From Phoronis australis (Eukaryota; Animalia; Phoronida): a DNA stretch of 64,000 nt. Shown here piece after piece: positions 2,651-64,000 of this stretch. Below the pieces are notes generated by a model, which worked only from the letters and a program-made list of their open reading frames with translations, made no database searches and was not told the DNA's origin. Both the position numbers and the translations under genes were made by a program. The stretch is from assembly GCA_002633005.1 (NCBI GenBank), contig NMRA01000555.1, forward strand, positions 33,774-97,773, written 5' to 3'. How positions within the stretch are numbered: position 1 is the first letter of the stretch; the number at the start of each line of letters is the position of its first letter.

Positions 2651-2720
2651 GTGAAATTTTGTGGTACCCCGGGTAGGGAGGGCGGGAGAGGTATAAACTT
2701 GTCTAATTAGGAAAACTTAC

Positions 2721-2831
2721 GAGTGAATGTACTGTTGCTTGAGGCTGGGCCAACAGGAAGCTGGAGAGAAAGAACAAAAAGCGCAACCATCGGACTTGGT
2801 AGGAACTAACCAGCAGTTGGATATGAAGCAT
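2721..2831 (-). CDS. Putative signal-peptide first exon, copy 1 (MLHIQLLVSSYQVRWLRFLFFLSSFLLAQPQATVHSL)
   Basis: ATG at 2831-2829, 37 open codons with a hydrophobic core, then a GTAAGT donor; near-identical inverted copy at 47859-47969. Confidence 0.45.
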
Positions 2832-2898
2832 GAAGGGCTCTATAATGGTATTTGCCCAAATAATAGGATTTATGTCAGAGTGCCATAAATCTCATTAT

Positions 2899-11239: not shown

Positions 11240-12430
11240 TTCCTGAATGGACAAAAATTAGTTTTAAGCTTCTGACTGCAGCTAACCAGCAAGATCTTCC
11301 TATCCAGTGCAGATCTATTGTCAAAACCTGTTTTCTATATCGGAGACAAAGAAAAAAGCCATTGAGAAGGGGTAGCTATTTTTAAAGACATGTATGTAAG
11401 TGTTTTGTTAATGTCCTTATTCAGGCTGACATACATGTACGGGTTGTGGTTGTAAAATTTGGTGCAACTGAATGTGTGGAAACAACAGGTAATAGCGTTC
11501 GTGGGAAAGAGCATGGTGAGGTAATTTTGAGCGTTCATGAAGTTCTTCCACATTTCATGAAAAGGTTTTGCTATCTATTGAAAACCCACAAAAATATATA
11601 CCAGTTCTTGAATTCTGAATGACTGACCAGTCTTAACTAATACATTGAAAAGCTGCAAGTCATTTATAAATTCATGTGACTGCCATTTTTGTGAAAACTG
11701 CATTTTTGCTGTGAAAATAAGTGAGGTCGTATTTGAACATATTATTCTTACTGCCAACATACAGGCAATGGTGCCTCTGGATTTTTAATTACTCTTAAAC
11801 AACAGAAAGATTATCCATCATTTTTAAATAAGCCAAGTCTTCATATCTTCTATTAGATGAAGAATAAAAAATCTGAGGAACGGTTCCTTCAGCCATAGAC
11901 CTTAAGTGTGCTTAACAGACTCGTGAATCTGTAGTTGGCGTTTAAAGTTGCTGAAAGTATCAGAAATCAAAAGGCTTGAAAATGGGTGCCAAAGGTTTGA
12001 AATTGTCTCAGAAAACTTGCACATGTTGCAGACAAGTGATGCGTTTGAAGAATTGTCATGCCTCGGAATGAAAACTAAAGACGCAGTTCTATACGCTACT
12101 TAATATATATACCCTTGGTTTATGGAAATAGTAATTCTCTAATTTTTTGTGAAATTGAAGAGCAATTGCCATATCATATTTTTGAAAAAATAGGGGCAAC
12201 ATTTTTATCCAACCTGAAGTACTTAATTATTCATGTTTCAGTTTTTGTTCCAGGTTCAGCGACATTGTTAAGGTCACTTCAAGCCACAACATATACAACC
12301 TTTGTTACTCTTTTCTCTTCCCACATTATGCCCACACACCAGCAGTGCTACGTGGCACAATATACAAGCCAGTGGCCTTTGAGAAATGTGAACAGCAGTA
12401 ATAAGTTACCATAATGAAATGTGCCAGTGG
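11240..12430 (-). pseudogene. Decayed ubiquitin-specific protease (peptidase C19)-like domains, repeated at +2472
   Basis: Ordered minus-strand remnants: LNNV..T*..VLQV (Cys box), FHSEA*QFF (QDA.EF-like), LVCNMC, FILHL, FKYDL..FH..., DWSVIQNS; second Cys-box-like GFDN...SCWLAAVRSL near 11260-11330. Many stops. Confidence 0.4.
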
Positions 12431-15400
12431 ATTGTTTGTGAGTGAAGAGGTACTGTATCTGACTGCTACACCAATCGGCCTCCTTGGTGAAGATGACCTT
12501 TCTATAGGCAATGAGTTATGTGTGAACAATGGCTTATTTCCTGTCCTCTAAGAATCACAAGGGACTCTAGCTCAAGAAGACCTGCATATATTAACACTCT
12601 GGTCTAGTCTAGGGTCAGATTATGGACACAAAGCGAGTCAAGTGATATGCTGTTGTGTTTACCTTTAAGGATCCAATTTTGGATGTTGTTGAGGCTGAAT
12701 GAGGCTCCATTAAGGAAAGCCACGTGCCGAAAGTGAACCTTTCCTAAAAGCGCTTCTTGAGGCTATTGAACCTACGTCCCAGTGAAATGAAAACCAAAAG
12801 CATCTGACATTCTTTTCCTTTCTCAATGAGTGACATTAACTTTTCCTTTAAGAGGAAAGGATTTATACTGATGGTAAAAACTTTTCAATTCCATATGATG
12901 ATGCTAAAATGACTGCATCGTTTGCCTTATTGTCAGTGGAAAACCCGTTTGTGTTTCACTTTGATGATGGAATAAATTTTTCATCAAAATGCAAGTTTGT
13001 CAATAATTATTCAAACCACATTATTTCTTCAGTTTTAAAGCCATATGCAGTACAATTTTGCTGTTTCTTTATAAAGTTGAAACGATTGCCGATTACGCTT
13101 GCGAATTGTCATTCTCCTGTTGAGTTAGAGAAATGTGCGACGACCAAAACGTAGTATTCCCTTTCGTTTGCATTTGATTTGTTTATGTGTGTAACTATTT
13201 TTAGAGCATTCTTAAGAAGGCCATTGAACAGTTTTAAGTTTTGTGTTAACATGTCTGTGAAAAATGTTCCACAGCCAGGCAAAGTATGTTTTCAATCGTA
13301 GCTAGCTGGCTACAGTTCTGCTATGCACAAGATTCGAGAATAAACAATAATCAGTGTTAGTATTTAAAAACAAAATGGCCATCTTTTCAACCACTTACAG
13401 ACAAAAGAACAACACTGTTAAAAATGTAGTTTTCCTGATGCATAATCAGGCATATCAAGGCCTGAATTTCTGAATTAGGTTCAATTCTCTCACGTTATTG
13501 CTTAAGGACTGCTTTTCACTTTGTCGAAAGGTAAAATTGACGGTAAGGCGGCTGGTTTCAGTTGTTTTCTTTCACATGTAATAGAACATTCAGGGAAATA
13601 TTAGCAAATTATAAAAGAAAACACAAGACAAAACTGCTTTTGTAAGGCAGAATATAATTTATTTTTCAACTTCATTTTTATAGGTAGAAACTAATAATGT
13701 TATTTAAGATCTAAATTAAACATGNAAAATTAGTTTTAAGCTTCTGACTGCAGCTAACCAGCAAGATCTTCCTATCCAGTGCAGATCTATTGTCAAAACC
13801 TATTTTCTATATCGGAGACAAAGAAAAAAGCCATTGAGAAGGGGTAGCTATTTTTAAAGACATGTATGTAAGTGTTTTGTTAATGTCCTTATTCAGGCTG
13901 ACATACATGTACGGGTTGTGCTTGTAAAATTTGGTGCAACTGAATGTGTGGAAACAACAGGTAATAGCGTTCGTGGGAAAGAGCATGGTGGGGTAATTTT
14001 GAGCGTTCATGAAGTTCTTCCACATTTCATGAAAAGGTTTTGCTATCTATTGAAAACCCACAAAAATATATACCAGTTCTTGAATTCTGAATGACTGAAC
14101 AGTCTTAACTAATACATTGAAAAGCTGCAAGTCATTTATAAATTCATGTGACTGCCATTTTTGTGAAAACTGCATTTTTGCTGTGAAAATAAGTGAGGTC
14201 GTATTTGAACATATTATTCTTACTGCCAACATACAGGCAATGGTGCCTTTGGATTTTTAATTACTCTTAAACAACAGAAAGATTATCCATCATTTTTAAA
14301 TAAGCCAAGTCTTCATATCTTCTATTAGATGAAGAATAAAAAATCTGAGGAACGGTTCCTTCAGCCATAGACCTTAAGTGTGCTTAACAGACTCGTGAAT
14401 ATGTAGTTGGCGTTTAAAGTTGCTGAAAGTATCAGAAATCAAAAGGCTTGAAAATGGGTGCCAAAGGTTTGAAATTGTCTCAGAAAACTTGCACATGTTG
14501 CAGACAAGTGATGCGTTTGAAGAATTGTCATGCCTCGGAATGAAAACTAAAGACGCAGTTCTATACGCTACTTAATATATATACCCTTGGTTTCTGGAAA
14601 TAGTAATTCTCTAATTTTTTGTGAAATTGAAGAGCAATTGCCATGTCATATTTTTGAAAAAATAGGGGCAACATTTTTATCCAACCTGAAGTACTTAATT
14701 ATTCATGTTTCAGTTTTTGTTCCAGGTTCAGCGACATTGTTGAGGTCACTTCAAGTCACAACATATACAAGCTTTGTTACTCTTTTCTCTTCCCACATTA
14801 TGCCCACACACCAGCAGTGCTACGTGGCACAATATACAAGCCAGTGGCCCTTGAGAAATGTGAACAGCAGTAATAAGTTACCATAATGAAATGTGCCAGT
14901 GGATTGTTTGTGAGTGAAGAGGTACTGTATCTGACTGCTACACCAATCGGCCTCCTTGGTGAAGATGACCTTTCTATAGGCAATGAGTTATGTGTGAACA
15001 ATGGCTTATTTCCTGTCCTCTAAGAAACACAAGGGACTCTAGCTCAAGAAGACCTGCATACATTAACACTCTGGTCTAGTCTAGGGTCAGATTATGGACA
15101 CAAAGCGAGTCAAGTGATATGCTGTTGTGTTTACCTTTAAGGATCCAATTTTGAATGTTGTTGAGGCTGAATGAGGCTCCATTAAGGAAAGCCACGTGCC
15201 GAAAGTGAACCTTTCCTAAAAGCGCTTCTTGAGGCTATTGAACCTACGTCCCAGTGAAATGAAAACCAAAAGCATCTGACATTCTTGTCCTTTCTCAATG
15301 AGTGACATTAACTTTTCCTTTAAGAGGAAAGGATTTATACTGATGGTAAAAACTTTTCAATTCCATATGATGATGCTAAAATGACTGTATCGTTTGCCTT

Positions 15401-16196
15401 ATTGTCAGTGGAAAACCCGTTTGTGTTTCACTTTGATGATGGAATAAATTTTTCATCAAAATGCAAGTTTGTCAATAATTATTCAAACCACATTATTTCT
15501 TCAGTTTTAAAGCCATATGCAGTACAGTTTTGCTGTTTCTTTATAAAGTTGAAACGATTGCCGATTACGCTTGCGAATTGTTATTCTCCTGTTGAGTTAG
15601 AGAAATGTGCGACGACCAAAACGTAGTATTCCCTTTCGTTTGCATTTGATTTGTTTATGTGTGTAACTATTTCTAGAGCATTCTTAAGAAGGCCATTGAA
15701 CAGTTTTAAGTTTTGTGTTAACATGTCTGTGAAAAATGTTCCACAGCCAGGCAAAGTATGTTTTCAATCGTAGCTAGCTGGCTACAGTTCTGCTATGCAC
15801 AAGATTCGAGAATAAACAATAATCAGTGTTAGTATTTAAAAACAAAATGGCCATCTTTTCAACCACTTACAGACAAAAGAACAACACTGTTAAAAATGTA
15901 GTTTTCCTGATGCATAATCAGGCATATCAAGGCCTGAATTTCTGAATTAGGTTCAATTCTCTCACGTTATTGCTTAAGGACTGCTTTTCACTTTGTCGAA
16001 AGGTAAAATTGACGGTAAGGCGGCTGGTTTCAGTTGTTTTCTTTCACATGTAATAGAACATTCAGGGAAATATTAGCAAATTATAAAAGAAAACACAAGA
16101 CAAAACTGCTTTTGTAAGGCAGAATATAATTTATTTTTCAACTTCATTTTTATAGGTAGAAACTAATAATGTTATTTAAGATCTAAATTAAACATG
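11254..16196. repeat. Direct tandem duplication, period 2472 bp (11254-13724 / 13726-16196), joined by a single n
   Basis: Copies differ only by scattered substitutions; all ORFs repeat at offset 2472; n at 13725. Confidence 0.97.
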
Positions 16197-19100
16197 TGAA
16201 ACAGGCTAAAAGTGATCATTGAGGAATTTATCATTACACCTAAAATGTGTTTCTGATCTCAACAAACAATTTTCATTCTAGGTGCCAATATTTATTCCAA
16301 TGCAATAATACGAAATAACTGAATAGCCCATTCATGTTAATTTAGCATTTAATCTGGTAGTCCTGGGGGTGAGGTCCGCAATAAAATCAGGACACTCACT
16401 CATCTAGAGACTTTTACTGGATATGTTATAGCTTTGAAGAGTAATTGCTGTCAAAAGGTCACCTTTGACTTCTGAGCCGCACGTCCCATACTCCTCTTAT
16501 AGTAGGAACACTCCCACCCAGAACAATATGTGTTGCTAGCCTACCATCCGGGTCCCGTCATTCAGTCAGGTACCTTGTGGGAATATCATAACTGAACGAT
16601 GTGGGATAGAAACTAATCGTTAAAAACTTACCAAGTAATGTGATTATGTAGTCTTTTAATGGAAATGCATAGAGCACACACGGGTCGTGTCACTTGGTTG
16701 ACTTTTTTGACCGCAATTCTCCACGCCGGTAGTAACCTTAATTTTTTTTGGGAATTTGTGACCACCTGTGGAAGATTTACACCCGGGAAAATAGCAATGA
16801 AAAGACTTAGCGCAACTACGCACGTTGATATCAATTCTGTTTTTTTACCAGCTGTTTACATGCAGACAGCGACGAATGCGCAATTTAGTCACCGTTAGCA
16901 CAGCAGTGACGTCGCGAGGAGAATTCGTCGAACAGCCCCAATTGGAAGCGTGGTGGCGCAGGGATAGAGCACGCGCAACCTGGAAGACACGTCGTTATTT
17001 GGAATCCGTGGCATTTACCGGTTTTTTCCGTAGTTAACCTCATGGACGTGCATTCGAAAAATGGAAATTTACAGGTGTTTTAGTAGAACAAAGAACCGCC
17101 CGGGCGATTATTCGGAAAAGGGGGAGTGTAAACAGAAAGTTATAATTTTGCTGACTTTGACATGTTTTACCTAAAACTGTTTTTAAATTTTATTTTGATA
17201 AATGCAGAAGTCGCCAACACTTTTTTCGTTTTGATAAAGGATAAATCCTCCACAAAACTGAATTGATGTCAATGCTTAGTGGGCATTTGAGCAGCAATTT
17301 TCCGAATAAACATGCCCACTATCTAGGCAATTGACACCAGGAGTTGTAATACTTGCGTCATAATTTTCCGAATAACCGCCCGAGGGCGTTTCATCGGATG
17401 GCCATATCTACGGAAAATCTCGATGCGAATTTTCCAATTTTACATTCGTTCTCAGTGTATTTTTTTGTATTTGTTAATACTTCAGAAATCAAGGAAAATA
17501 CTGTTTTCAGAAACAAAAACAACATTTTCTCAAACATTCGGCGCTGCTCTCCTTTATAATTGTGCTTTTCGCGATTTTTTGCGAGGCAAATTGTTGGACC
17601 CCGTTCATGTTATCCTAGATCCGCCACTGAGACACTCAGCAATGCAACTGACAAGATGCACGGCAGCCAGAACGAACAAATACAGACATCTGTTTTTGGG
17701 TCTTAATGACAAGTATCACAACTTTCGAGGGCAACATCCCCACAGGCAGATGTGTGCTAAACTGACGAAAAATCAAAATGAAGTCTTAACTATGCCACGT
17801 TGGATACATGTAACAGTTTTTGGATTTTGAAGCTTTCATGAGTTATACAAATTCATGATGCAATCACCTACAAACTGATTTCATTCTACTCATTGACAGC
17901 AAAAACTCAGGTCCAAATGTCATTTAGTTCCCTGTAAGCAAGTTTTGAGCAGAAACGGAATTTTAAATCATGGCGTCCTTTTTTGCATAAATTAGGCAAA
18001 TTTATCATGCAGCAGCGTGTAAATTTATTTCATTCAACTTATTGATCACTGAAGCATGGGAGCAGATATTAGTATGAATTTACTTGTAGTGTCTGATAAC
18101 ATTTACAGTATAAGCACAAGTAGAATTTTCAATAATGAAATTTTGAATAATTGATACAAATTATATAAGTATCCACGCCAAACTAGCTCCATTATATTCA
18201 CTGTCCATGGAAATATGTGTGGAAACACCAATCTAATCCACCTGCAATGCTTGATGTAGTAGTAATAAGAAAAAAAAAGAATTTTGCATAATTACAGACT
18301 TAATTTGCTTATTTAAAAATGGTCACGATTTTCAAGATTGCAACCCATCTAAAATGCTCCAGGAGGGGCACCTAGACATGAAACAACCGAAAAACCTTAT
18401 ATTGACAAGAATTTCTAGTTACCCATTTTTGGCTACTAGACTATTGGGCGCAAGTCGCAAACAGTTCTCAAGGAATGAATTTAACCACCATGGCTGGATG
18501 TTCCATAATTTGTTCTTCTGGTCTTCATCTGTCAATGATAAGTTGTCAGTGAGGTGTGCGTTGTTCAAAATTTCGGAAAGCAAAGCATCATATCGTTAAC
18601 CGGATCACACCCAGAATCAGACTCCCAATATTCTTGTTTATTTGGCATTTTACGACCTCTCTTCGACGGTATATCCCCATCATTTTCTCTAGCTGCTTTG
18701 ATAGGATCTTTGCTGGCACACCTTTTTGTGCGTGGCATACAGTGGCAATCAATAGTTGATTGGAAACCAGCCAATTATTGCTACAAGTTAAATCCAGAGT
18801 TGCAGTTTTGCAACAAAAGCAAGCCAAGAAAAGAAATTATTAATAAAAAGCTCGAATCATCCAAAGAAAGTTTTGAATAAAGTTTCTAAATTAGCTTTAT
18901 TTCAAAGATAATCCTACATGTTTAGTGTTTACAGTATCCTTTTTGCATCACATTCACAGGTCACAACACCGGCCACTCATCTTGACTTTTATGTCTTATG
19001 TATTTTGTCCATTTATCCATAAATGGCGTTAGTCTATAGTTGTATATGTGGGCTTAGTCGAATGTGTATTGATTGAGATAATTACGGTCGTAAAACAACG

Positions 19101-24285: not shown

Positions 24286-24735
24286 TGTAAAACATTTCAT
24301 ATTGAACATGTATAATATAGGTATAGACAGAATTTCAAAGGAACAGCATTTTTCTACAGCAGGCTCCAGTTTACGCTAAAAACTGCCAAATCCGCGATCA
24401 CTTTAAGAGAATGAATGTGTGTAACCAGCTTGTTGGGTGGCAGCTGAGCATTTGTTTGCGAATCAATCTCATACTTTAAAAACCTTTGGGCTGCTAAGTA
24501 GAGGTGAGGTTTTAATGAGCTAGGTTCGCTTTTTTCCTAAATATGCATCTGTTTAACTTGGAAGCCCCAGTAACGGAAAAAAAATTAGGTGACCTCCCAA
24601 ATATAAACGAGAACCACCAGTTTTCGAAGCGCTAATGTCTTAGAGTGTTTCAAGGACTCTTGTTTTTGAGTGGAGCTCAAAATGACAGCATGAACGGTCA
24701 AGGAGTAGCTACTTCTTTCAATAATGTTTACTTAC

Positions 24736-25020
24736 TCTTACAGATTTTTATGTCACAAACTTGGAATGCCGGTATTGTTTGTTCTTCTATGTAGCACCAG
24801 GGACCGCGGTAGTAAGCGTCCGGATTCCGGCAATACCTGGAATCCTGGACACTCCTGTCCCAAGTGTCGTACACATCCTTTATGACTCGATTGTTGGTTA
24901 TAATATGGTTCTGGACATTCCTACTGGACCACTGTCTGCATGTGTCTCCCGCAACTGTCTTTGAAGAGGTACCGGCGTACATGAGACCTTTCTTATCAAC
25001 TTTACACGAGTAGTTTGGCC
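24736..25020 (-). CDS. Kringle-domain exon A (last intact in transcript order) of a secreted multi-kringle protein
   Basis: 285 nt, tttacag acceptor and gtaagt donor, phase 1-1; six Cys; YAGTSSKT..GDTC.QW, YCRNPD..RGPWCY, CDIKIC. Confidence 0.92.
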
Positions 25021-25463
25021 CTGTAAACCAAATCACACTGAACATGTACAATGTATAAATAAAAAGAATTTCAAAGGATCAACGTTTTTCTACAACAGGG
25101 ACACATTTACGCTAAAAACTGTTAAATCCGTGATCACGTTAAGAGAACCGATATGTGATACCAGCTTTTCGTGTTCCTGCTGGTCATTTGTTTGTGAAAA
25201 TAAGCCGTTTTTCAATTGTCCAGCTGTTAATTATATGTGGAGTTTAAGTGAGCCACGTTCGCTTTTCCCTAAAGGTGGAGCTGTTTAACTCCGCTGTAAC
25301 GGGAAAAACAAATTCTGTGACATCCGAAATATCGACGTGAACCACCAATTTTTGGAGTGCTTTTGCCTTAGGGTGTTTCAGGGACTTTTGTTTTTGAGTT
25401 GAGCTCAAAATGACAGCATGAGCGGTCATGGAGTAGCCACTTCGTTCAATAATGTTTACTTAC

Positions 25464-25748
25464 CGTCACAGATTTTTATATCACAGAGTCGGTATGACGG
25501 CATTTGTTGTTCTTCTATGTAGCACCAGGGACCGCGAGACTCACCGTCCGGATTTCGGCAATACCTGGAATTCTGGACACTCCTGTCCCAAGTGTCGTAC
25601 CCATCCTTTATGACTCGATTGTTGGTTATAATATGGTTCTGGACACTCCTACTGGACCACTGTCTGCATGTTTCTCCCGTAACTGTGTTTGAAGAGGTAC
25701 CCCGCATGTACTCTGGAAAGAATAGTTGAAATGTGCTCATCAAACCCC
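25464..25748 (-). CDS. Kringle-domain exon B; first Cys lost within a base-complemented 45-nt segment
   Basis: 285 nt, same splice sites, open frame; N-terminus GLMSTFQLFFPEYMR replaces PNYSCKVDKKGLMYA. Confidence 0.85.
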
Positions 25749-26190
25749 CTGTAAACCAAATCACACTGAACATGTACGATGTATAAATGGAAAGAATTTC
25801 AAAGGATCAACGTTTTTTTCAACAGGGACACATTTACGCTAAAAACTGTTAAATCCGTGATCACGTTAAGAGAACCGATATGTGATACCAGCTTTTCGTG
25901 TTCCTGCTGGAAATTTGTTTGTGAAAATAAACCGTTTTTCAATTGTCCAGCTGTTAATTATATGTTCAGTTGAAGTGAGCCACGTTCGCTTTTCCCTAAA
26001 AGTGGAGCTGTTTAACTCCGCTGTATCGGGAAAAACAAATTCTGTGACCTCCGAAATATCGACGTGAACCACCAATTTTTGGAATGCTTTTGCCTTAGGG
26101 TGTTTCAGGGACTTTTGTTTTTGAGTTGAGCTCAAAATGACAGCATGAGCGGTCATGGAGTAGCCACTTCGTTCAATAATGTTTACTTAC

Positions 26191-26475
26191 CGTCACAGAT
26201 TTTTATATCACAAATTCGGTATGTCGGCATTGGTTGTTCTTCTATGTAGCACCAGGGACCGCGAGAGTAATCGTCCGGATTCCGGCAATACCTGGAATTC
26301 TGGACTCTCCTGTCCCAAGTGTCGTACACATCCTTTATGACTCGATTGTTGGTGATAATATGGTTCTGGACATTCCTACTGGACCACTGTCTGCATGTAT
26401 CCCCCGAATTTGTCTTTGAAGAGGTACCGGCGTACATGAGACCTTTCGTATCAACTTTACACGAGTAGTTTGGCC
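26191..26475 (-). CDS. Kringle-domain exon C
   Basis: 285 nt, canonical splice sites, six Cys, YCRNPDDYSRGPWCY. Confidence 0.92.
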
Positions 26476-27034
26476 CTGTAAACCAAATCACACTGAACAT
26501 GCACAATTGTACACTGTAGGTATAGAAATAATTTCACAGGATCAACGTTTTTTTACAACAGGGACACATTTACGCTAAAAACTGTTAAATCCGTGATCAC
26601 GTTAAGAGAACAAATATGTGATACCAGCTTTTTGTGTTCCTGCCGAGCATTCGTTTGTGAAAATAATCCGTTTTTTAATTGTTCAGATGTTAATTATATA
26701 TGGAGTTTTAGTGAGCCAGGCTCGTTTTTTCCCTAAAGGTGCATCTCTTTAACTCGATGACACCGTAACGAAAAAACAAAGTCGGTGACCTCGCAAAAAA
26801 TAACGAGAATCACCAATTTTTGAGTAGACGTTAAAGGCAGAAAGCTGTCCTCAGAGTGCACGTTGTTTACAAACTGATGTCTTGTTTCTACAAAAGGTAG
26901 TGTACAAACACNCCACCAATTTTTGGAATGCTTTTGCCTTAGGGTGTTTCAGGGACTTTTGTTTTTGAGTTGAGCTCAAAATGACAGCGTGAGCGGTCAT
27001 GGAGTAGCCTTTTCGTTCAATAATGTTTACTTAC

Positions 27035-27319
27035 CGTCACAGATTTTTATATTACAAAATCGGTATGTCGGCATTGGTTGTTCTTCTATGTAGCACCAGG
27101 GACCGCGAGAGTCATCGTCCGGATTCCGGCAATACCTGGAATTCTGGACACTCCTGTCCCAAGTGTCGTACACATCCTTTATGACTCGTTTGAGGGTTAT
27201 AATATGGTTCTGGACATTCTTACTGGACCACTGTCTGCATGTATCCCCCGAAGTTGTATTTGAAGAGATACCGGCGTACATGAGACCTTTTGTATCAACT
27301 TTACACGCGTAGTTTGGCT
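27035..27319 (-). CDS. Kringle-domain exon D (paralog or allele of C)
   Basis: 285 nt, canonical splice sites, six Cys, YCRNPDDDSRGPWCY; lies just beyond the n at 26912. Confidence 0.9.
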
Positions 27320-27911
27320 CTGTAAACCAAATCACACTGAACATGCACAATTGTACACTGTAGGTATAGAAATAATTTCACAGGATCAACGTTTTTTTAC
27401 AACAGGGACCCATTTATGCTAAAATTGTTAAATCCGTGATCACGTTAAGAGAACCGATATGTGATACCAGCTTTTCGTGTTCCTGCCGAGCATTCGTTTG
27501 TGAAAATGATCCGTTTTTTAATTGTTCAGATGTTAATTATATATGGAGTTTTAGTGAGCCAGGCTCGCTTTTTCCCTAAAGGTGCATCTCTTTAACTCGA
27601 TGACACCGTAACGAAAAAACAAAGTCGGTGACCTCGCAAAAAATAACGAGAACNGAAAATAATCCGTTTTTTAATTGTTCAGATGTTAATTATATATGGA
27701 GTTTTAGTGAGCCAGGCTCGTTTTTTCCCTAAAGGTGCATCTCTTTAACTCGATGACACCGTAACGAAAAAACAAAGTCGGTGACCTCGCAAAAAATAAC
27801 GAGAATCACCAATTTTTGAGTAGACGTTAAAGGCAGAAAGCTGTCCTCAGAGTGCACGTTGTTTACAAACTGATGTCTTGTTTCTACAAAAGGTAGTGTA
27901 CAAACACTTAC

Positions 27912-27975
27912 TTTCTGCTGTCGCAAATGCGAAAGAGACTAGGCAGATTAGACGCACGGTCAAGAATGGTTCCAT
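27912..27975 (-). CDS. Signal-peptide exon of the kringle gene (MEPFLTVRLICLVSFAFATAE)
   Basis: ATG 27975-27973, hydrophobic core with an A-T-A cleavage-like motif, 64 nt ending in phase 1 at GTAAGT, compatible with the kringle exons. Confidence 0.85.
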
Positions 27976-30900: not shown

Positions 30901-33059
30901 GGTACGTCCTTGTAAGTTGCAGCGAATATTTCACCCTAACGTTTTGGCCTAGAATAAATTATCCACAGCAAGTGTGTTGGATCCATACCCTGAAACTTTG
31001 TCTTTATGTGCAGAAATGTTTTGGGTCATTGAAATAATTTCCATAACGACTTAACTCGTCATTTTTATGACTTTTGTGGTTCATTTCCGTGTTTATGTTA
31101 CTATTACACACTGTTATTTTTCGCATTTTCGTGACATTCTTGATTTTTAGAATACAAAAACATTAGTAAATCAGTCGATTATGCGAAATGATAATAATGT
31201 ATTAATTAAATAATTTTTCATTTGCTTCTGGTATAATCATCTCGAACTGGCAAAGTGCTTCTAATGATATGGCAATTTCGTTGAGAAATGGCGGAGTTAC
31301 GAAAAGTTTTAATGACACTAAATTCCACATCTGAAACAAACGAATGTAAACAACTGTAACGCATCCGCGGCGCAACCTCAGCGGCCCCGAGATTCATGTA
31401 GAATTTGACATTTCAAAGCTGTAGCTCTATAATAAACAAACCAATTCCCATGTGAGTGGATGGTAGAGTAAGATATGTGAAAACAATCATATCCAGCAGG
31501 TTATCAAAGGCTTATGCCATTCGAAATGTATCCACTAGGATTCTCACAGACTATGTTCTTCATAAAAACTAGCTTTGGAGCACACTGTGAGATGTTCAGA
31601 TATCAGAAATAGTCCGATACTTTGAGTTTTAGATAAGACGACGATGGATTCATATTAAAACATCGCGAAATGGCCGAAACGTTTTGCTTTCGGGGTTTTT
31701 CTACTCTGTCACCGTTTCCACATTTGCACGGAACTGTGCCAAGCCAGCCGTTACGCTCAGACGACATAGTTGCTTTTTAACATCGGACACGTAACTTGAC
31801 GTCGATTTAAGAGAGGCGCACAAACAAGACAACGTCTATTTGGAGAACGAGTACTCCAGTACATAAACTGGACTAACAAAATCTACTCAGACAATAAATT
31901 GATATTAGCAGACAAAGTAGAGGACTGTGTCCGCTACCCTGTTGTTGTTTCGCACACACAAAGAGTGGCTTGTGCAAAAAGAACAGCGGTAGCCATCGAG
32001 TCACATCTGACGTTTTTAAAAGTTTTTTTCGTTCAAAAATCACATGAGTATCTCCTGATAAGGAAAAACAGCAGCAAAAATTTAAAGATGCGCAGCCATT
32101 TTGTCTCTGACTCAAGATTTTTCCTGAAAGCCAATTCGTTAACGATTTTCTCGTGTTTTTTGGTGAAAGTTCTGTTTTTCCGATGGCCGCAACAAGAGGT
32201 ATATGGTGGTTATGTACCGGCATCTGGAAAATTTTCAGACGGATTTGACTACCGTGGCATCCCCTGTTGGCAGTTTTAGTTTCCACAAAGCACATCAGTT
32301 ATTTGGATGACTATTTAACGACCTTTGCCAAAACTTCCTGCTGGAAGATTACTTGAATATTCTGTTTCCCCATTAACCACGATTTGCACGAATAGTTACA
32401 AAATGATAATTTTCATATTACTGAAGGTTCGTGAGATTTCTGGTTTTAATTGTGACAGCTTCTAGCGATGCAACTATTGCCGAAAATGATTACCACATAC
32501 ACGATCATTAATATTGTACACATGTTTGTATTTGATTAGCAGTCAAATGGATTATGCCGAATACATATACGAGTATGGTACGTTTTAGCCAGCCTGATAG
32601 CTGTATGAAGACTATCGTCAAAATAGAGCGAGGTACCACTGTGCGTTTTTCTTCCATAGCCCGCGGTAGTTCTGCTCGTCAACTAGCCATGAAACATGTA
32701 TCAGAATGTAGACCTAAAGACCGGACCGTGTGCGTGCAAAATCTTTGAAGCAAGCGACTCTCACCTTCTCCGTTACAGCCGTTTAAGTGGAAAATAATCT
32801 AATAAACGTCATTTTCTTGCGTAATCCTCCGCCTTTTTTAACAAATAAAAGTAATGACGTCGTTTTGAAAACAATACGCTCGTGACACGCGCATGCGCCA
32901 TTTCCTAAATTTTTGCGTCATCTCTTGAGAAAGATGATAGCTTGGTAGCAGCAAAATTTCTTATGAAATTCGGTTTCAAAATTCTAAAAACTTATTATGA
33001 AGTGAAACCAGTTCTGATGATTTGTTTTGACGAGTACGTATCCTCGTGAAAGAACAACA

Positions 33060-36609: not shown

Positions 36610-39046
36610 ATGGCGTTGACCAAGGCGGAGATTAAAAAACGATACAGGGAGGAAAAGAAAAGAGAGATGGGGGAAAGATATTTAGAAAAAAAAGGCGGCG
36701 ACGGCTCCAGTACTACGTTCCCTCGTCACAGCTGACCGCCTCTGAACGAAAAAAACATAGCGGAAAATATAGGAAACGTGTGCGCCGCTACCGAGAGAAA
36801 AAGAAACAACAGTCAATGGCTGATGTTCCACATCAACCAGTGGGATTGAAAGCCAATCCAAAGGTTCAATGGTTGTCAAACTGAACTTCAATGGTGGTCA
36901 CAGAAACCAAGGTAAGAGGAAGAGAATCAGTCGGGCCCTGGACAAAGTGCATCGTGAAATCAGACAATTAGAAGAGAAGAAAAAACAACTGAAAACACAA
37001 GTGAAAACTTTACAAAACTAGAATCAAAGACTACAATCAAGAATCAATTCACCAAAATAACCAACGACCTCCGAAAGTAAAACTAAACGTGACATACAAG
37101 CCGCTGGTCTAACACCAAAAAGAGGGAATACAGTTAGCAGACAAATTCTGTTTGGCAACGCTCTTACAGGTATCTCTGAACTCAAAGAAGCAAGAAAAAC
37201 AGCAGGTTCATCAACAATTAAGAAGAAACATATGCTGACCCACATTGTTTCCGAGAAAATTCTGCAAAAATATTGCGGTTCGAAGAGGATGGGCTGTATT
37301 GCAGGCATTAACAGACATTCTTTAGGAAAGACGGTTAAAAAGTGGATGCCATTAAGAAGTGGATCTAGACGGCGCACCCAGCAAAACTGGAAAAAAGAAG
37401 TCTATGCTTTCTTTGAGAAGGATGACTACAGTCGGGCTCAGCCAGGCAAAGGAGACGTTATAACCGACAAAGGCGAACAAAAACAGAGGCTTGTTTTGAC
37501 AGACTACTTGGCAAACCATCACAAAAAGTTCACTGCGGAAAACCCGAGCGCCATTATTTCTTTAGCAACATTCTGCAGGATGCGCCCGAAGCATGTTCTC
37601 CTCACTAGTTTGATCTCAAGAAGCAGCTGTTTGTTTACTCGACACAAAACTATGACGCTCCTTTTGAAGACGTTGCAAAGAGAAGGCATCAGCGTTCCAC
37701 TTAATCCAGAATCATTTTTGACGACAAACAGACCATCAGAAGAACCACTGAATGACGCATTACATCACAGAGTTGCGTATAAGCAGTGGAAAAGAGTTGA
37801 AGTTACAGAAAGAGGGAAAGTGAAGAACGTGATGCGAATTGTAGACACAGAGTTGGAGAAGCAGGAATTCATCAATACGTTCCAGACTCAAATTTCAATG
37901 TTTGAAAAACGTGTACAATGTCACAAAGCAGTACAACGAAATAAGACAACTTAATGAAAACCTTCCAGAACACCACTTTATCTTACAAATGGACTTTGCA
38001 CAAAATTATACGTGCAAGACGAACGACGAACGGCGTACTGGAACAAGACAGGTGTGACAATTCACCCTATTGTGATGTACTACGAGATGGATTAATGCTG
38101 TGGTAAAACACTGAAGCACAGAAGCTTTGTAGTTGTCTCGGACGAGATGTCACGCTCGCCGTCTACTGTTCAAGCAATCCTAAATGCAATAGTTCCACGT
38201 GTAAATGAAGTCGATCCTGGCGTGCAAACGATTCATTATTGGACGGACGGACCCACTAGTCAGTACCGCAATAAACAAGTTTTCTTCACAGTGACAAATC
38301 AAACAGAGATATATGATATTGATGCCAAGTGGAATTTTTTTGAAGTAGGCCACGGCAAAGGTCCCTGTGATGGACTTGGTGGAACGACAAAGAGAATGGC
38401 TGACGACGCGGTAAGGAGCGAAAAGGCAATCATCCAAACCCTTCTGATTTTTACAAACTGGCTCTAAATTCCAGCATGAAGTGTGTGACATTCTTGTTTG
38501 TTTCTTCTGACGACTGTTATAGGGCAGACATTGTACTGAATGAAAGACGCGTTGTTCCTCTCAAGGGTACATTCAAGGTCCATTCAGTGGTTGGTCGTGG
38601 TTCTTCTTTGGTTGCCTTCAGTGATGTTAGCTATTGCTATGCGGTTTGTATTACCGGAATCGAAACTTGCACTGAGTGGAAACGCAACTAATGGAAAGCG
38701 CTTCAGGAGCGAGAGCCAAAAGTTACAGGGTGAAGTCTGTGAATTCGAAACGAAGCCTCGTTGATCGTGTTGCTTACAACGAGGGAAAATTTGTTGCTGC
38801 ACTAGTTGAAGGCAGTTGGTATTTAGATAAGATACTGCAACTTCATAGCGACGACATGGAAGCTGAAATAGAGTTCATGGAGCATAAAAACAGCTTTTGC
38901 AGTGGTCAAATCACAATGTAGTCATATGGGTTCCACAGTCCAGCATCATTACAAAAGTTAAATAACCAAGTCCAATAGGCAAGACTAAACGGATGTTTAA
39001 GCTGGACCTAGAGGACATAGACCAAATAGAACTTTTGGGAGTATAA
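36610..39046 (+). mobile_element. Sola2-like DDD transposase pseudogene
   Basis: MALTKAEIKKRYRE start; ATFCRMRPKHV; catalytic motifs QMDFAQNY, WTDGPTSQYRNK, FEVGHGKGPCDGLGGTTKR; several frameshifts and stops; GTAACG(C/T)(A/G)CATTAC-like motifs repeated in both flanks. Confidence 0.75.
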
Positions 39047-45796: not shown

Positions 45797-47858
45797 AATA
45801 ATCAAACAAATTGCAGTTCAGTGTGGAACGTCAATAGCGCAATTAGTTGATCTGTCAAATGTGCTTTTTCTGCTAATTTTATTTTATATTATTCGCACAT
45901 TGAACCTTAGTGTTCAGTTAGTGATAACCAAACCGTTTCAATGATCTTTTCGTTTTAAAATTGCTTCAATTAATACTACAGGTAATCCAATATCGTCTGC
46001 ATTCGTCGCGATTCTACTCGGGGATTCCATTGATAGGTTATTCGCCGAGTATGCATGACAAGGGAGATAAGTCTTTATTTTGATACATAAACGAGTCGAC
46101 AAATACGGATTTTCTCAGCTACAAGGTTTATAATTACCATTTTTAAAATAGTAGTCCTAACTGCAACAAAATTCATTCGATTTACAGCAATTTAACGAAA
46201 TGTTTTTATGCGGTTTATTTGTCGCGGATACGAACCGATATGATCTCGCGTGATCCACCCTCATCACCCGTTTTTCGCCGTATTTTGTAAATGTGATGTG
46301 CCATTTGTGAAAGACTAGTCACCAACCGACTAGAGCGACGTCTTTCGGGAAAATGCAGAAAAACACGTCTTAAATGAGGCCCAAATCAGTGGCTTATTTT
46401 TCTCATGGTTGCCTTCTCTAAAGTTAAGAATGGAGGGAAAATCTATTACATGAAGTTATGGAACACGTGACGTAATACCCGCTCCGTTCTACTGGCAAAT
46501 TTTGTTAAAACCTTTTTATTGGTTGATTGTCGATGTTTATATATCCAGAATTCTTTTTTGGTGTTGTACACGTATGTTCAGTACTTGATATCGCCACACG
46601 AGGTTATTCTACCGTGAAGCAAAAACAGACAAAACAGTTTTGTTGTTCCCGCAGAAACACCATTTTCGCACAAGTCCAAGGTGGGGAGCTACATATACCG
46701 ACAACATGCTCATCAGATCTTTACATGTATTTGTGAGACATCACGATGTACAGTTTATAAAAATGCCACTTACACAAGCTTGAAAAAACACAAGGTCACT
46801 GGATTTAATAATCATATACTCCAGCATAACAAGCGCTCACCATAACATCTCGCTATAGACCTAATTCACGCCGACAGGAGACGCGTTCCAACACGAGGCT
46901 CGCTACGACAGTTCCGTTGGCTTATTGGCATACTGGTTGTATTCGCGTTGCTCGAAACGGCTAGAAAAACTACGGACACTCAACTCTCTGTTTTACAATT
47001 CCTAAAGACGTTGAGATTCGGAAGCATACGTTCGGTCCTTGCCATACGCCACGACGAAGGAAAATATGACGGTATAAAATTTATAAATGTTTTCTAAAAG
47101 TTAGATCATCTCGATTTTGTCGCACTTCGATTACCGAGCATCTTAGCAACGACCGGAAAATCTTCCGCCAGCCATGCTGTGTTCATGACTACGGGTTAGA
47201 ACATGATGCATTTTTCTTCCCAAAAAAGGACAGGGCCTTCAATTCCTTGATTTTGGGACCGGATATTGGCCCTAAACCCCTCTCAAAAATATTGAAAAAT
47301 CCCCCGAAATTCCCTCCACGAGGCTTAAAACCTACCCTAGTGATTGAAAACTTCTCCCCGAAGTTCAAATCACATGTACTGTAACCACACAGGCGACAAT
47401 TTCAAAGAGCACAACATGTTACTCACAAAACCTGTGAGAGCTTGCAACAGGACGGGGTGCTGATCTGGAGATAGGGATTTTGCCCCGCACTCGGCGAAAA
47501 AAGGCACAGGCACATTTCCCCTCGGATAAACAAGGCTCCTGAAGAAACATGATAACTTTTCTTACTCTGTCCAGTTAACTGAAATTGAGCTCTAAAACGA
47601 GGTTATGCTTTGGACGAACGAAATAGGTGTTCTAATTTTAAAATTCACTGGTCCAGATTAATAGTTGAAACCTAACATATGAAATAGACGTCAAAATTAT
47701 TAAAACCAGGATAGCCGCGCAGAATTGATGGTCAAATAATTACTTGTAAATGTGTGCAAGGGAGTGAATGAAAACCTGCATATAATGCGAAATAATGAGA
47801 TTTATGGCACTCTGACATAAATCCTATTATTTGGGCAAATACCATTATAGAGCCCTTC

Positions 47859-47969
47859 ATGCTTCATATCCAACTGCTGGTTAGTTCCTACCAAGTCCGA
47901 TGGTTGCGCTGTTTGTTCTTTCTCTCGTGCTTCCTGTTGGCCCAGCCTCAAGCAACAGTACATTCACTC
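47859..47969 (+). CDS. Putative signal-peptide first exon, copy 2 (MLHIQLLVSSYQVRWLRCLFFLSCFLLAQPQATVHSL)
   Basis: ATG 47859, 37 codons, GTAAGT donor at 47970; within a ~207-bp inverted duplicate of 2691-2898. Confidence 0.45.
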
Positions 47970-48151
47970 GTAAGTTTTCCTAATTAGTCAAGTTTATAAC
48001 TAGTAGACTCCTTCCCGTTCGTCGTTAATTGTCCTGGACAAACGATACTTCCCTTATTTATTATTTGTAGCCACAGATGGCTTTTCTAACGGCCGATTTC
48101 TTTCGATTTTAATGATCCCTCAAACCCAAACCAATTCCTCGCCATTTCACC

Positions 48152-60118: not shown

Positions 60119-60269
60119 CTATACAACTAGTTCACAATGAAACGCACATCAGAAATGGCAAGTGCAATGTAACACGTGAAGTTTGCATGCGCAACTACAT
60201 GTACATGTATGACGATAAAACTACACATATCTTACTATACATACGTTGCTGCGCATCATAATCTACACA

Positions 60270-62040
60270 TCATCTGAATAATGATAAAGTCCTTCGAGTT
60301 CCAGTTAGCTGCTCATTCAAACTGGGTTTTTCAAACATTATTAGAAGCGACTCTAATTTCCGTAACCTGTGTGCATCATTTTCAATGTACGTGTATCTAA
60401 TGACTGTATTGTCGACAATCTCCTGGAGAGTTATCTTGCGACCATGAACGTTTTGAAAATGGTCTGTGTTGGAGCCGTTTTGTAAATGCATTGAAAGTCG
60501 TCGCGACAAGGAACACACTGTGTACCCAATGTTAATTTGTTTCTGAAGAGGTCGAAAACATTCGACCGCGGGACAAGTAAACTCATAAACAACATTACAT
60601 CTAGCAACAGTGCGGACCTTGTCACGACCAAGATTGTTTCTCGCCACTAAATTAGTGGTCTTCATACTCTTGTAATAAATAATTATATGTTGTTTGTCAT
60701 AAGGACTAACGACTTTTATTTTATTATAGATTATGTTCTTTAAGACTTGTTCATCTTGTACATAGCTTTTGTACATACAGTTTTTGTAGAACAGTTTTTT
60801 AACATTACCAGTAAATGTTTGTAAATGATAAAGTTGTTCGACTTTTGAGACAAACCAATTAATGTGCTTATCCACAAAGGAATTTGTGTAACCATTATTT
60901 ATTAGAAGTTGTTTTACATGTTGAACTTTACTAATGAACAGTTTCCAGTCTGATGAAATATTGTGAGCTCTCTTTAACAGATTGACTAAAACAGTTTTGT
61001 TTCAACGCTCAGAAAAGTCACTATCAGCATGGAGACAGATACCATTGTCAGTAGGCTTGTAATAAACTGATGTGATGAATCTTGTGTCTGATTTACATAT
61101 AAGTAGATCTAGAAAAGGTATCTTATCATTCACAGGTGTTTCATGAGTGAATTTCAATACTGAATGGTTCCCAAGCACAGTCTTAAGCGATACCATTTCA
61201 TCGAAATTACAATTAACGAAAGTATCATCAACATATCGAACGTATATGGGAATGTGGACAACTCTAGTTTTAACTTGTTTTTCCATTTTTGACATATGGA
61301 ATTCAGCGAAAGTTGGGCCTAATGGGGAACCCGTACTAACACCATCTTTCTGCAAAAATTGTTTACCATTTACATGTCGAAATGGTACCTTCGTAGTGAA
61401 AATTAATAGCATTTTTTTAAGTATGTCCTTAGAACTTTCAAGAGGTTTCAAAATTGGATGCTTATAGACATTGTTAATAATAATATCTTAAGGAAGTCAT
61501 CACGTGACTTGCTACTATACTGACTTTGAATATACGGATTTATAATCTGATCAATACATTTAGACACTTTATATGTTGGTATTAATACTTGAGAAATGAC
61601 AGGTCTCAATAGATTATTAACTTTATGCGTCTTTGCGTTGCCATAAAGAAAATCTTCAGAGAAATCACCTGCTATCTCATTGAAGATCTTCTTACGTGCT
61701 TGTCTTTTCACCTTCTTGATATGACTGTTGAGATCCCTTTTAAATCAAGTATGGGCGTACGACTAACAGACTCAAACTTACTGGAATCGTTTGTTAACTG
61801 AATAAGTTTGTCAAAATAATCACTTCTGTCCAGAATTACATATTTATTGGACTTATCAGCTCGACGAATTTCGACATTTTTGTTCTTGTTCAAACGTTCA
61901 GCAGCATCAGTAAGACGACGTGGTAAAGTGCGTTGACAACCATTACTACGACACTTAGTGTTTTCCGCTCTTAGTAAGTAATACGTTCTTCTGGGAGTTT
62001 AATTTCACCATTGTAGAGGCGTTGTAGCTTCTTAATCAAC
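60270..62040 (-). mobile_element. Penelope-like element, Naiad-type (RT plus C-terminal GIY-YIG), frameshifted and internally deleted
   Basis: RRADKSN, LYGNAKTHK..LRPVISQ, QKDGVSTGSPLGPTFA, YVRYVDD, IPFLD, YEFTCPAVEC..IGYT..LSRRLSMHLQNG..DH, LESLLIMFEKPSLNEQ. Confidence 0.93.
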
Positions 62041-64000
62041 CTTTTCAGTGAAGACAGTTGACATTTAGCCACATTTTACCAACAATTTGCCTCAAACTTT
62101 CCCATGACAAACCTGAAAACGATGAACTTACCCTAACTTTTCCCATTACAAACCTGATAACGATGAACTTACCCCAACCTTTCCCATTTTAAACCTGATA
62201 ACGATGAACATGTCTCCCTATGCTTAGGATTAAATTGTCACATCAAGCCAAAATTCAATTGCTATAGAAAAAAGTAGAACTGGGACACTTGTATAACGAC
62301 ATTTTTAAGTTGGAAAAGGATGGATTTATTCAAATAAATCCCGACATCCGTGACCAGTTAAGAGCGGAAAGTACTCGACGCACTCTACTACGTCGTCTTA
62401 CTGATTTTTCTGAAGGTTACTTAAATGGCAACCCTAAAACGCATGAAGTTATTAATCCAGTGAGACCTGTCATTTCCCAAGTATAGACACCTATATATAA
62501 AGTGTCTAAATGTATTTATCAGATTATAAAGCCGTATATTCAAAGTCAGTATGTTATCAAGACACGTGATGACTTCCTTGAGATCTTGCGTACCACTGTA
62601 CCTATTTCTGGCTGTCAACCAATGTCACTGGATGCAGAGTCGTTATTCACCAATGTCTCAGTACTTGAAACAATAGATATTATTATTAACAATGTCTAGA
62701 AGCATCCAAATTTGAAACATCCTGAAATTCTTAAGGACATGCTTAAAGAAATGCTATTAATTTGCACTACGAAGGTACCATTTCGACATGTAAATGGTAA
62801 ACTATTTTTGCAGAAAAATGTTACCGTTAGTATGGGCTCCCCATTAGACCCAACGTTCGCTGAATTTTGTGTCAGAAGTTGAAAAACGAGTTAAAACTAA
62901 CATTGACCACATTCATATACAGTATATGTTTAATATGTTGATGTAATTGTAATTTTGATGAAATGCTATCGCTTAAGACTGTGTTTGAGAACCATTGGGT
63001 ATTGAAATTCACTCATGAAACATTTGTGAATGATGAAATACCTTTTCTAGATGTACTTATATGAAACTCAGACACAAGATTCATCACATCAGTTAATCAC
63101 AGGCCTATTGACAAAGGTATTTGTCTCCATGCTGATAGTGACTTTCGTGAGCGTTATAAGATAGCTGTTTTAGTCAATCTCTTAAAGAGAGCTAACATTA
63201 TTTCTTCAGACTGGAACCTGTTCATTAGTGAAGTCCAACATATAAAACAACTTGTAATAAATAATGGTTACACACATTCATTTGTGGATAAGCACATTAG
63301 TTGGTTTGTCTCAAAAGTTGAACGACATTATCATGTACAAACATTTACTGGTAATGTTAAAAACTATTCTTCAGAAACCGTATGTCCAAAAGTTGTGTAC
63401 AAGATGACCAAGTCCTAAAGAACACAATATATAATATTGTAAATGTTGTTGGTCCTAATGACAAACTAGATGTAATTATTTATTTCACGAATATGAAGAC
63501 TCTAATTTAGTGATGAGAAATAATATTAGTCGTGAGAAGGTACGCACTGTTGCTTGATGTAATGCTGCTTATGAGTTTACTTGTCCCGCAGTCGAATGTT
63601 TTCATCCTCATCAGAAATAAAATTACATTGGGCATACAATGTGTTCCTTTTGGAAACGACTTTCAATGCATTTACAAAGCGTCACCATCAAAGGCCATTT
63701 TCCAAAGTTCATGGTCGCAAGATTATTGGTCAGGAGATTGTCGACAATACAGTAATTAGATACACGTACGTTGAAAATGATGCACACTGGTTACGAACAT
63801 TAGAGTCGCTTCTAATAATGTTTGAAAAACCCAGTTTGAATGAGCAGCTAACTGGAACTGGAAGGACACTATAATTATTTAGGTGATCTGTTGATTATGA
63901 TGCACAGCAACGTATGTACATTGGTTATGTGTTTTTATCGTCATAGTTGCGAATGCCAACTTCACGTGTTTTATCCCATACGCGTTGAAACTGTCGAGGG
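62041..64000 (+). mobile_element. Second Naiad-type Penelope-like element, head-to-head with the previous copy
   Basis: LGLNCHIKPKF, GNPKTH..RPVISQ, SLDAESLFTNV, MGSPL, IPFLD, LESLLIMFEKPSLNEQLTG; inverted homolog of 60170-61670. Confidence 0.93.
62095..62210 (+). repeat. Three ~40-bp tandem repeats in the PLE N-terminal region
   Basis: ctttcccat..caaacctga.aacgatgaac(ttaccc) occurs three times. Confidence 0.85.

What the first reader, a model, noticed from the sequence alone, without database searches (positions are those of the whole stretch)
25702..25746. 45-nt segment that is the exact non-reversed complement of its paralog, in frame inside a kringle exon
Seen: copy A 24974-25018 is ggcgtacatgagacctttcttatcaactttacacgagtagtttgg. 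Copy B 25702-25746 is ccgcatgtactctggaaagaatagttgaaatgtgctcatcaaacc. Every position is A<->T or C<->G swapped in the same order (45/45), and the immediate flanks (gaagaggtacc and ccctgtaaacc) are identical. The segment spans exactly 15 codons and stays open (PNYSCKVDKKGLMYA becomes GLMSTFQLFFPEYMR) but removes kringle Cys1. Established: inversion, template switching and recombination give reverse complements; a same-direction complement would need parallel-strand or polarity-reversed copying, which known polymerases do not perform. Inference: most likely an artefact, either a gap-filler that reversed without complementing or a colour-space error (the two versions differ by only two colour calls). 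If it is present in real DNA, it is an undescribed mutation or diversification mechanism.
Basis: partly seen in the sequence, partly recalled or inferred. Interest (0 to 1): 0.9.

Follow-up and report, generated by a model that had tools for sequence, protein, structure and literature searches.

The report
Complemented block, likely assembly software error

Summary
It lies in the second of four tandem 285-nt kringle exons and removes the first cysteine. Contigs from four public DNA runs (one sample, one study) were laid on the array. Four of the 32 listed pieces span the homologous tract, all with ordinary letters. One carries three of the five alleles private to the affected copy in its span, including the two nearest the block, and runs on through the normal 45 bases; a second run shows the same linkage for 16 bases. 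The array also sits among single-N joints with a 253-nt exact overlap, the mark of a troubled short-read scaffold. Verdict: about 95% an in-silico artefact, most likely a strand-handling slip (complement without reversal) in gap filling or editing; colour-space decoding is the runner-up. The program was not identified. The contig is similar to the affected copy, not identical, and no raw reads were examined, so a real event private to the sequenced animal (about 3%) is not excluded. Five look-ups found no earlier scan note of this on other DNA.

The parts
25702..25746 (.). The complemented 45-nt block in copy B; codons 2-16 of the kringle exon on the minus strand
24974..25018 (.). Normal homologous tract in copy A; its complement matches the block at 45 of 45
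   Evidence: spanned with ordinary letters by X2 record 10
26429..26473 (.). Normal homologous tract in copy C (1 difference from A)
   Evidence: spanned with ordinary letters by X1 record 4, X3 record 22, X4 record 31
27273..27317 (.). Normal homologous tract in copy D (3 differences from A)
24736..25020 (-). Kringle exon A, 285 nt, AG acceptor and GTAAG donor, phase 1 on both sides, six cysteines
   Evidence: PF00051, E 1.8e-15
25464..25748 (-). Kringle exon B, 285 nt, five cysteines as assembled
   Evidence: PF00051, E 9.6e-15; match starts at residue 15 instead of 9
26191..26475 (-). Kringle exon C, 285 nt
27035..27319 (-). Kringle exon D, 285 nt, on a 741-nt piece between two single Ns; possibly an allele of C rather than a further copy
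   Evidence: 714 of 740 aligned positions identical to 26069-26809
27912..27975 (-). Likely first coding exon: 21 codons plus one base, hydrophobic, ends at GTAAG in phase 1; read by eye as a signal peptide, no predictor run
26912..26912 (.). Single-N scaffold joint; the 253 nt before it (26659-26911) recur exactly after the next single N
27654..27654 (.). Single-N scaffold joint, followed by 27655-27907, identical to 26659-26911

Best explanation
The block is most likely not in the animal's DNA: a software step likely wrote 45 bases of copy B from the wrong strand, complementing them without reversing them. Shown: the block is the exact in-place complement of the tract that the other copies and the public contigs carry; a B-like copy in real DNA has the ordinary tract; the surrounding scaffold has unresolved joins. 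Inferred: the tract lies in a 90-nt stretch identical between A and B, which a short-read assembler would leave as a small gap or branch; a gap-filling, polishing or later editing step filled it from a minus-strand read or path and applied only half of the reverse-complement operation. The true copy B would then be an ordinary six-cysteine kringle in a secreted multi-kringle protein. The program is not identified.
For: (1): X2 record 10 (202 nt, laid at 24845-25046, 5 other letters in all) carries the B-private alleles at 24918, 24952 and 24959 (3 of the 5 B-private sites in its span, including the two nearest the block) and crosses 24974-25018 with no other letter. X4 record 27 shows the same three alleles and reaches 16 nt into the normal tract. 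(2) Of the 32 pieces listed (50 more not shown), 4 span the homologous tract completely (X1 record 4, X2 record 10, X3 record 22, X4 record 31), with 3, 5, 13 and 12 other letters in total, so none holds a 45-letter complement. (3) The block has 0 differences from the complement of A although A and B differ at 24 of 241 other exon positions, so nothing has mutated in it since it arose. (4) Single-N joints at 26912 and 27654 with an exact 253-nt overlap, and a 2476-nt 99.1% duplicate meeting at the single N at 13725, show unresolved joins in this scaffold. (5) Established knowledge (recalled): polymerases copy antiparallel, so inversion, template switching and conversion give direct or reverse-complement copies; complementing without reversing is a one-line programming slip. 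Gap fillers extend from both edges and merge (PMC3446322, passages) or walk between a forward and a reverse primer (PMC3158087, passages), so they must handle both strands; neither paper reports such a bug in the passages I saw.
Against: The key contig is B-like, not B-identical: it lacks B's alleles at 24873 and 24944 and has two of its own (24904, 24942), so it may be another allele or another paralog, and the assembled B haplotype itself was not tested directly. The four runs are one sample of one study and are contigs, which drop rarer variants. A graph simulation found no k from 13 to 63 that puts branch points on both block edges; 7 of 51 values hit one edge. No second such block was found among 132 anchor-flanked gaps in the window's other repeats, so a recurring bug is not demonstrated. 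I found no paper that documents such a bug. The mirror-like junctions (CC|GG and GG|CC) are not explained by this account.
Confidence: 0.8

Rival explanations
1. Colour-space (SOLiD) decoding error: two wrong colour positions apart turned the bases between them into their complements.
For: The tracts differ at only 2 of 89 colours, both a 3 read as 0 inside a 0-3-0 pattern; 29 of 63194 junction pairs 45 nt apart in the window have that pattern on both sides (noticed after the fact). PMC4569514 (passages) states that one misread colour starts a chain of translation errors.
Against: Any block complement differs by exactly two colours, so the count of two is not evidence by itself. It needs two errors that cancel. 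The two other colour-type letter swaps give no match above 16 nt in the window outside TG microsatellites. Nothing shows that the assembly used colour-space reads; the library of X1-X4 is not on record.
Confidence: 0.14
2. The block is real DNA, private to the sequenced animal or a rare allele, made by parallel-strand or polarity-reversed copying from the opposite strand or from copy A.
For: The match is perfect and in place. The junction 4-mers of the normal sequence are complements of each other, which recalls the short same-strand complementary sequences of PMC4169377 (passages and section 14). A 1992 paper by Tchurikov is titled as evidence for parallel biosynthesis (seen only as a reference-list entry). 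The exact B haplotype was not tested with reads.
Against: A B-like copy carries the normal tract in two runs. The block destroys a conserved cysteine. PMC4169377 reports ordinary duplications flanked by short complementary pairs, mechanism not understood, not a complemented copy. 1235 of 63194 junction pairs (2%) show some symmetric 4-mer relation. No known polymerase makes such a product (recalled).
Confidence: 0.03
3. Chance resemblance of a diverged or inserted 45-nt piece.
For: None.
Against: Expected count 1.5e-17; background complement-only matches stop at 15 nt; the block sits at exactly the homologous position.
Confidence: 0.001

Closest known systems
Strand-handling and gap-closing errors in short-read draft assemblies (GapFiller, PMC3446322; Meraculous, PMC3158087; passages seen)
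   Same: Short block at a repeat shared by paralogs, in a scaffold with unresolved overlapping joins; these programs build fills from both edges or strands.
   Different: The passages I read describe no complement-without-reversal bug; the assembler used here is unknown.
SOLiD colour-space translation errors (PMC4569514, passages seen)
   Same: A block of systematically swapped letters bounded by two colour differences.
   Different: Would give three swap types, needs two cancelling errors, and no colour-space data are known for this assembly.
Same-strand complementary sequences, SCS (Yi et al. 2014, PMC4169377) and Tchurikov's 'parallel biosynthesis' proposal (Genetica 1992, title only seen)
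   Same: Sequences that are complements when read in the same direction.
   Different: SCSs are short pairs flanking ordinary duplications in bacteria; here a 45-nt perfect block replaces its own homologous tract in an animal exon, and real DNA of a similar copy lacks it.
Microinversions and template-switch mutations
   Same: Short, length-preserving, in-place replacement inside otherwise aligned sequence.
   Different: They give the reverse complement (recalled); this block is the unreversed complement.
Kringle domain (Pfam PF00051), as in plasminogen, HGF and apolipoprotein(a)
   Same: All four exons pass the Pfam cut-off; best solved match plasminogen.
   Different: No close relative: at most 40% identity among the best 150 of 1621 hits; no protease exon was identified, so it is not shown to be a plasminogen-like gene.

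Membership tests
In-silico artefact | Real DNA carries the normal sequence in the same haplotype context | tested here: inconclusive
   Met for a B-like copy (3 of 5 private alleles linked to the normal tract); not tested for the exact B haplotype
In-silico artefact | No raw read carries the complemented junctions | not tested
   Only contigs were laid; raw RNA runs X5-X7 were not examined
In-silico artefact | Lies in a region with signs of unresolved assembly | tested here: met
   Single-N joints with an exact 253-nt overlap 1.2-1.9 kb away
Gap-fill strand bug | Block edges coincide with contig ends or graph branch points | tested here: inconclusive
   No k of 13-63 hits both edges; 7 of 51 hit one, k=31 the right edge; letter case is not kept in the window file
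Gap-fill strand bug | Recurs elsewhere in the same assembly | not testable with these tools
   No whole genome is held; none among 132 gaps tested in this window
Colour-space error | Two colour differences bound the block | tested here: met
   true of any block complement
Colour-space error | Assembly built from colour-space reads | not testable with these tools
   No assembly metadata; library not on record
Microinversion | Block is the reverse complement of the ancestral tract | tested here: not met
   It is the unreversed complement
Kringle (PF00051) | Score above the curated cut-off | tested here: met
   55.1-60.6 bits against 34.3 for 4 of 4 exons
Kringle (PF00051) | Six cysteines for three disulphides (pattern recalled) | tested here: not met
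   Met for A (six), not for B as assembled (five)

The most novel reading that the evidence does not exclude
A cell copied 45 bases with unreversed polarity and put them in place of the same tract, between mirror-image CCGG and GGCC junctions: a mutation class that no known polymerase can make, invisible to aligners, able to rewrite 15 codons in frame at one step.
Probability: 0.03. Interest if true: 0.95.

Novelty: not a real feature. Interest (0 to 1): 0.12.

Why it matters
As an artefact it matters modestly: such blocks are invisible to ordinary alignment, look like 45 adjacent substitutions, give a false protein segment and a false cysteine loss, and can be found genome-wide with a simple complement-only scan; I found no paper describing the error. 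If it were real it would overturn the rule that DNA is copied only antiparallel and would add a new mutation class.

Tried and rejected
No cover: the four bins from 25444 to 25795 (all of exon B, including the block) and the bin 25180-25267 had depth 0 in 4 of 4 runs (79 contigs laid), and none of the 21 loose ends shown (of 23) reads as the complemented block; contigs show presence, not absence, so I do not count this for or against. No RNA holder was listed. Depth was not used as copy number. The open 15-codon frame as a sign of selection: rejected, 135 of 239 windows stay open. Microinversion or mirror copy: rejected. De Bruijn simulation: no k explains both edges. Protein searches for an independent copy of the gene: nothing with B against longer proteins, nothing with A at similar length, at most 40% identity among the 150 listed hits. 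No whole genome held. Earlier scan notes: five answered look-ups gave nothing relevant. Literature: ten searches found no description of a complement-only block as a bug or as a mutation; the library lacks most subscription papers. PMC7303137, PMC5829575 and PMC5368935 (passages) added nothing; PMC3223364 is not held. No supplements were read.

Full report
Observation. Window 25702-25746 (copy B) is the unreversed complement of 24974-25018 (copy A) at 45 of 45 positions. The expected number of such matches in 64 kb is 1.5e-17. In a scan of the whole window the only complement-only matches longer than 15 nt are this block against the homologous tracts of copies A, C and D. It is not a reverse complement and not a mirror copy.

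Anatomy. The block lies in a tandem array of four assembled units of 727-844 nt. Each holds a 285-nt minus-strand exon with an AG acceptor and a GTAAG donor, in phase 1 on both sides, and each passes the Pfam kringle cut-off. A 64-nt hydrophobic exon at 27975-27912 ends in the same phase and probably encodes a signal peptide (read by eye). The block begins two bases after B's acceptor, replaces codons 2-16 and removes the first of six cysteines. A and B differ at 24 of 241 exon positions outside the block but share an identical 90-nt tract (14 + 45 + 31) once the block is complemented back. That the frame stays open says nothing: a complement cannot shift it, and 135 of 239 45-nt windows of exon A stay free of stops when complemented. 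No close protein relative exists in the searched collections.

State of the assembly. Single Ns stand at 13725, 26912 and 27654. The 253 nt before 26912 recur exactly after 27654, and the 741-nt piece between them, which holds copy D, is 714 of 740 identical to the region of copy C. A 2476-nt duplicate at 99.1% meets at the N at 13725. I read these as overlapping contigs and alleles placed end to end by a short-read scaffolder (inference). The array was therefore hard to assemble.

Test against real DNA. Four DNA runs of one sample and one study hold about half of the sampled words of the region; they may be the assembly's own source, and they are not four independent witnesses. Their contigs were laid on 24300-26911 at 80% likeness: 79 contigs, with 32 of 82 pieces and 40 of 109 variant rows shown. 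Four listed pieces span the homologous tract in A or C completely, with 3, 5, 13 and 12 other letters in all, so each has ordinary letters there. X2 record 10 (202 nt) has five other letters against A. Three are alleles that among the four assembled copies only B has (24918, 24952, 24959), including the two nearest the block, and the contig crosses the whole tract without a difference. X4 record 27 has the same three alleles and reaches 16 nt into the normal tract. So a B-like copy in real DNA carries the normal sequence, and that sequence equals A's, which makes the block an in-place complement of B's own expected letters with no later mutation.

Limits of that test. The contig lacks two other B alleles in its span (24873, 24944) and has two of its own (24904, 24942); other contigs also show letters found in none of the four assembled copies. 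It may be another allele or a further paralog. No contig was laid on exon B itself, which for contigs proves nothing either way. No raw reads were examined, neither DNA nor the RNA runs X5-X7. A real event private to the sequenced animal is thus improbable but not excluded.

Mechanism. Best: a base-space program applied half of a reverse-complement operation while filling or editing this tract (0.80). Gap fillers work from both edges or strands (PMC3446322 and PMC3158087, passages), but those passages report no such bug, and my graph simulation found no k from 13 to 63 that explains both edges (7 of 51 values hit one). No second block turned up among 132 anchor-flanked gaps in the window's other repeats, and the genome is not held for a wider scan. 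A later edit of the sequence file would look the same and is counted in this class. Second: colour-space decoding (0.14). The tracts differ at 2 of 89 colours, which is true of any block complement; both differences are 0-3-0 read as 0-0-0, a pattern shared by 29 of 63194 junction pairs in the window (after the fact). PMC4569514 (passages) describes chains of errors after a misread colour. No colour-space data are known for this assembly. Third: real DNA (0.03). The junction 4-mers CCGG and GGCC are complements and mirror images of each other; 2% of junction pairs show some such symmetry. I cannot explain this under any account.

Comparison with what is known. Same-direction complements have been proposed as biology: Tchurikov 1992 (title seen in the reference lists of PMC5829573 and PMC4169377; text not seen) and the short SCS pairs of Yi et al. 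2014 (passages and section 14), which flank ordinary duplications by an unknown mechanism. Neither, as far as I saw, is a long perfect in-place replacement. Microinversions and template switches give reverse complements (recalled). Ten paper searches found no description of this block type as a bug or as a mutation; most subscription papers are outside the library. Five look-ups of earlier scan notes found nothing similar.

Verdict. Novelty: not a real feature. Interest 0.12, kept above zero because the decisive raw-read test is cheap and still open, and because the error type seems undescribed. If real (0.03), interest 0.95.

Noticed in passing
window 11254-13724 and 13726-16201: A 2476-nt tandem duplicate at 99.1% identity meeting at a single N; probably two alleles placed end to end.
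   Followed up: partly
window 26913-27653: The piece holding kringle copy D lies between two single Ns and is 96% identical to the copy C region; D may be an allele of C, so the true copy number is uncertain.
   Followed up: partly
window 24970-24975 and 25017-25020: The junction 4-mers of the normal tract are CCGG and GGCC, mirror images and complements of each other; unexplained.
   Followed up: partly
window 60208-61667 and 62402-63945; related piece at 483-1391: A retroelement fragment (RVT_1 hit at 61005-61487) present as a 1.3-kb inverted duplicate at 86%; the layout recalls Penelope-like elements (recalled; the neighbouring ORF had no Pfam hit).
   Followed up: partly
window 27912-27975: Probable signal-peptide exon of the kringle gene; exons downstream of copy A were not identified by a six-frame look on the minus strand.
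   Followed up: partly
window 2689-2898 and 47792-48001: A 210-nt inverted pair at 97.6% identity, each next to a run of Ns.
   Followed up: no
window 31365-31380: A 16-nt A/G, C/T-swapped match to the kringle exons; by my rough estimate within chance.
   Followed up: no
window 37061-38467: Two long plus-strand open frames (297 and 123 aa) that look like a decayed transposon-derived gene; no Pfam hit.
   Followed up: partly
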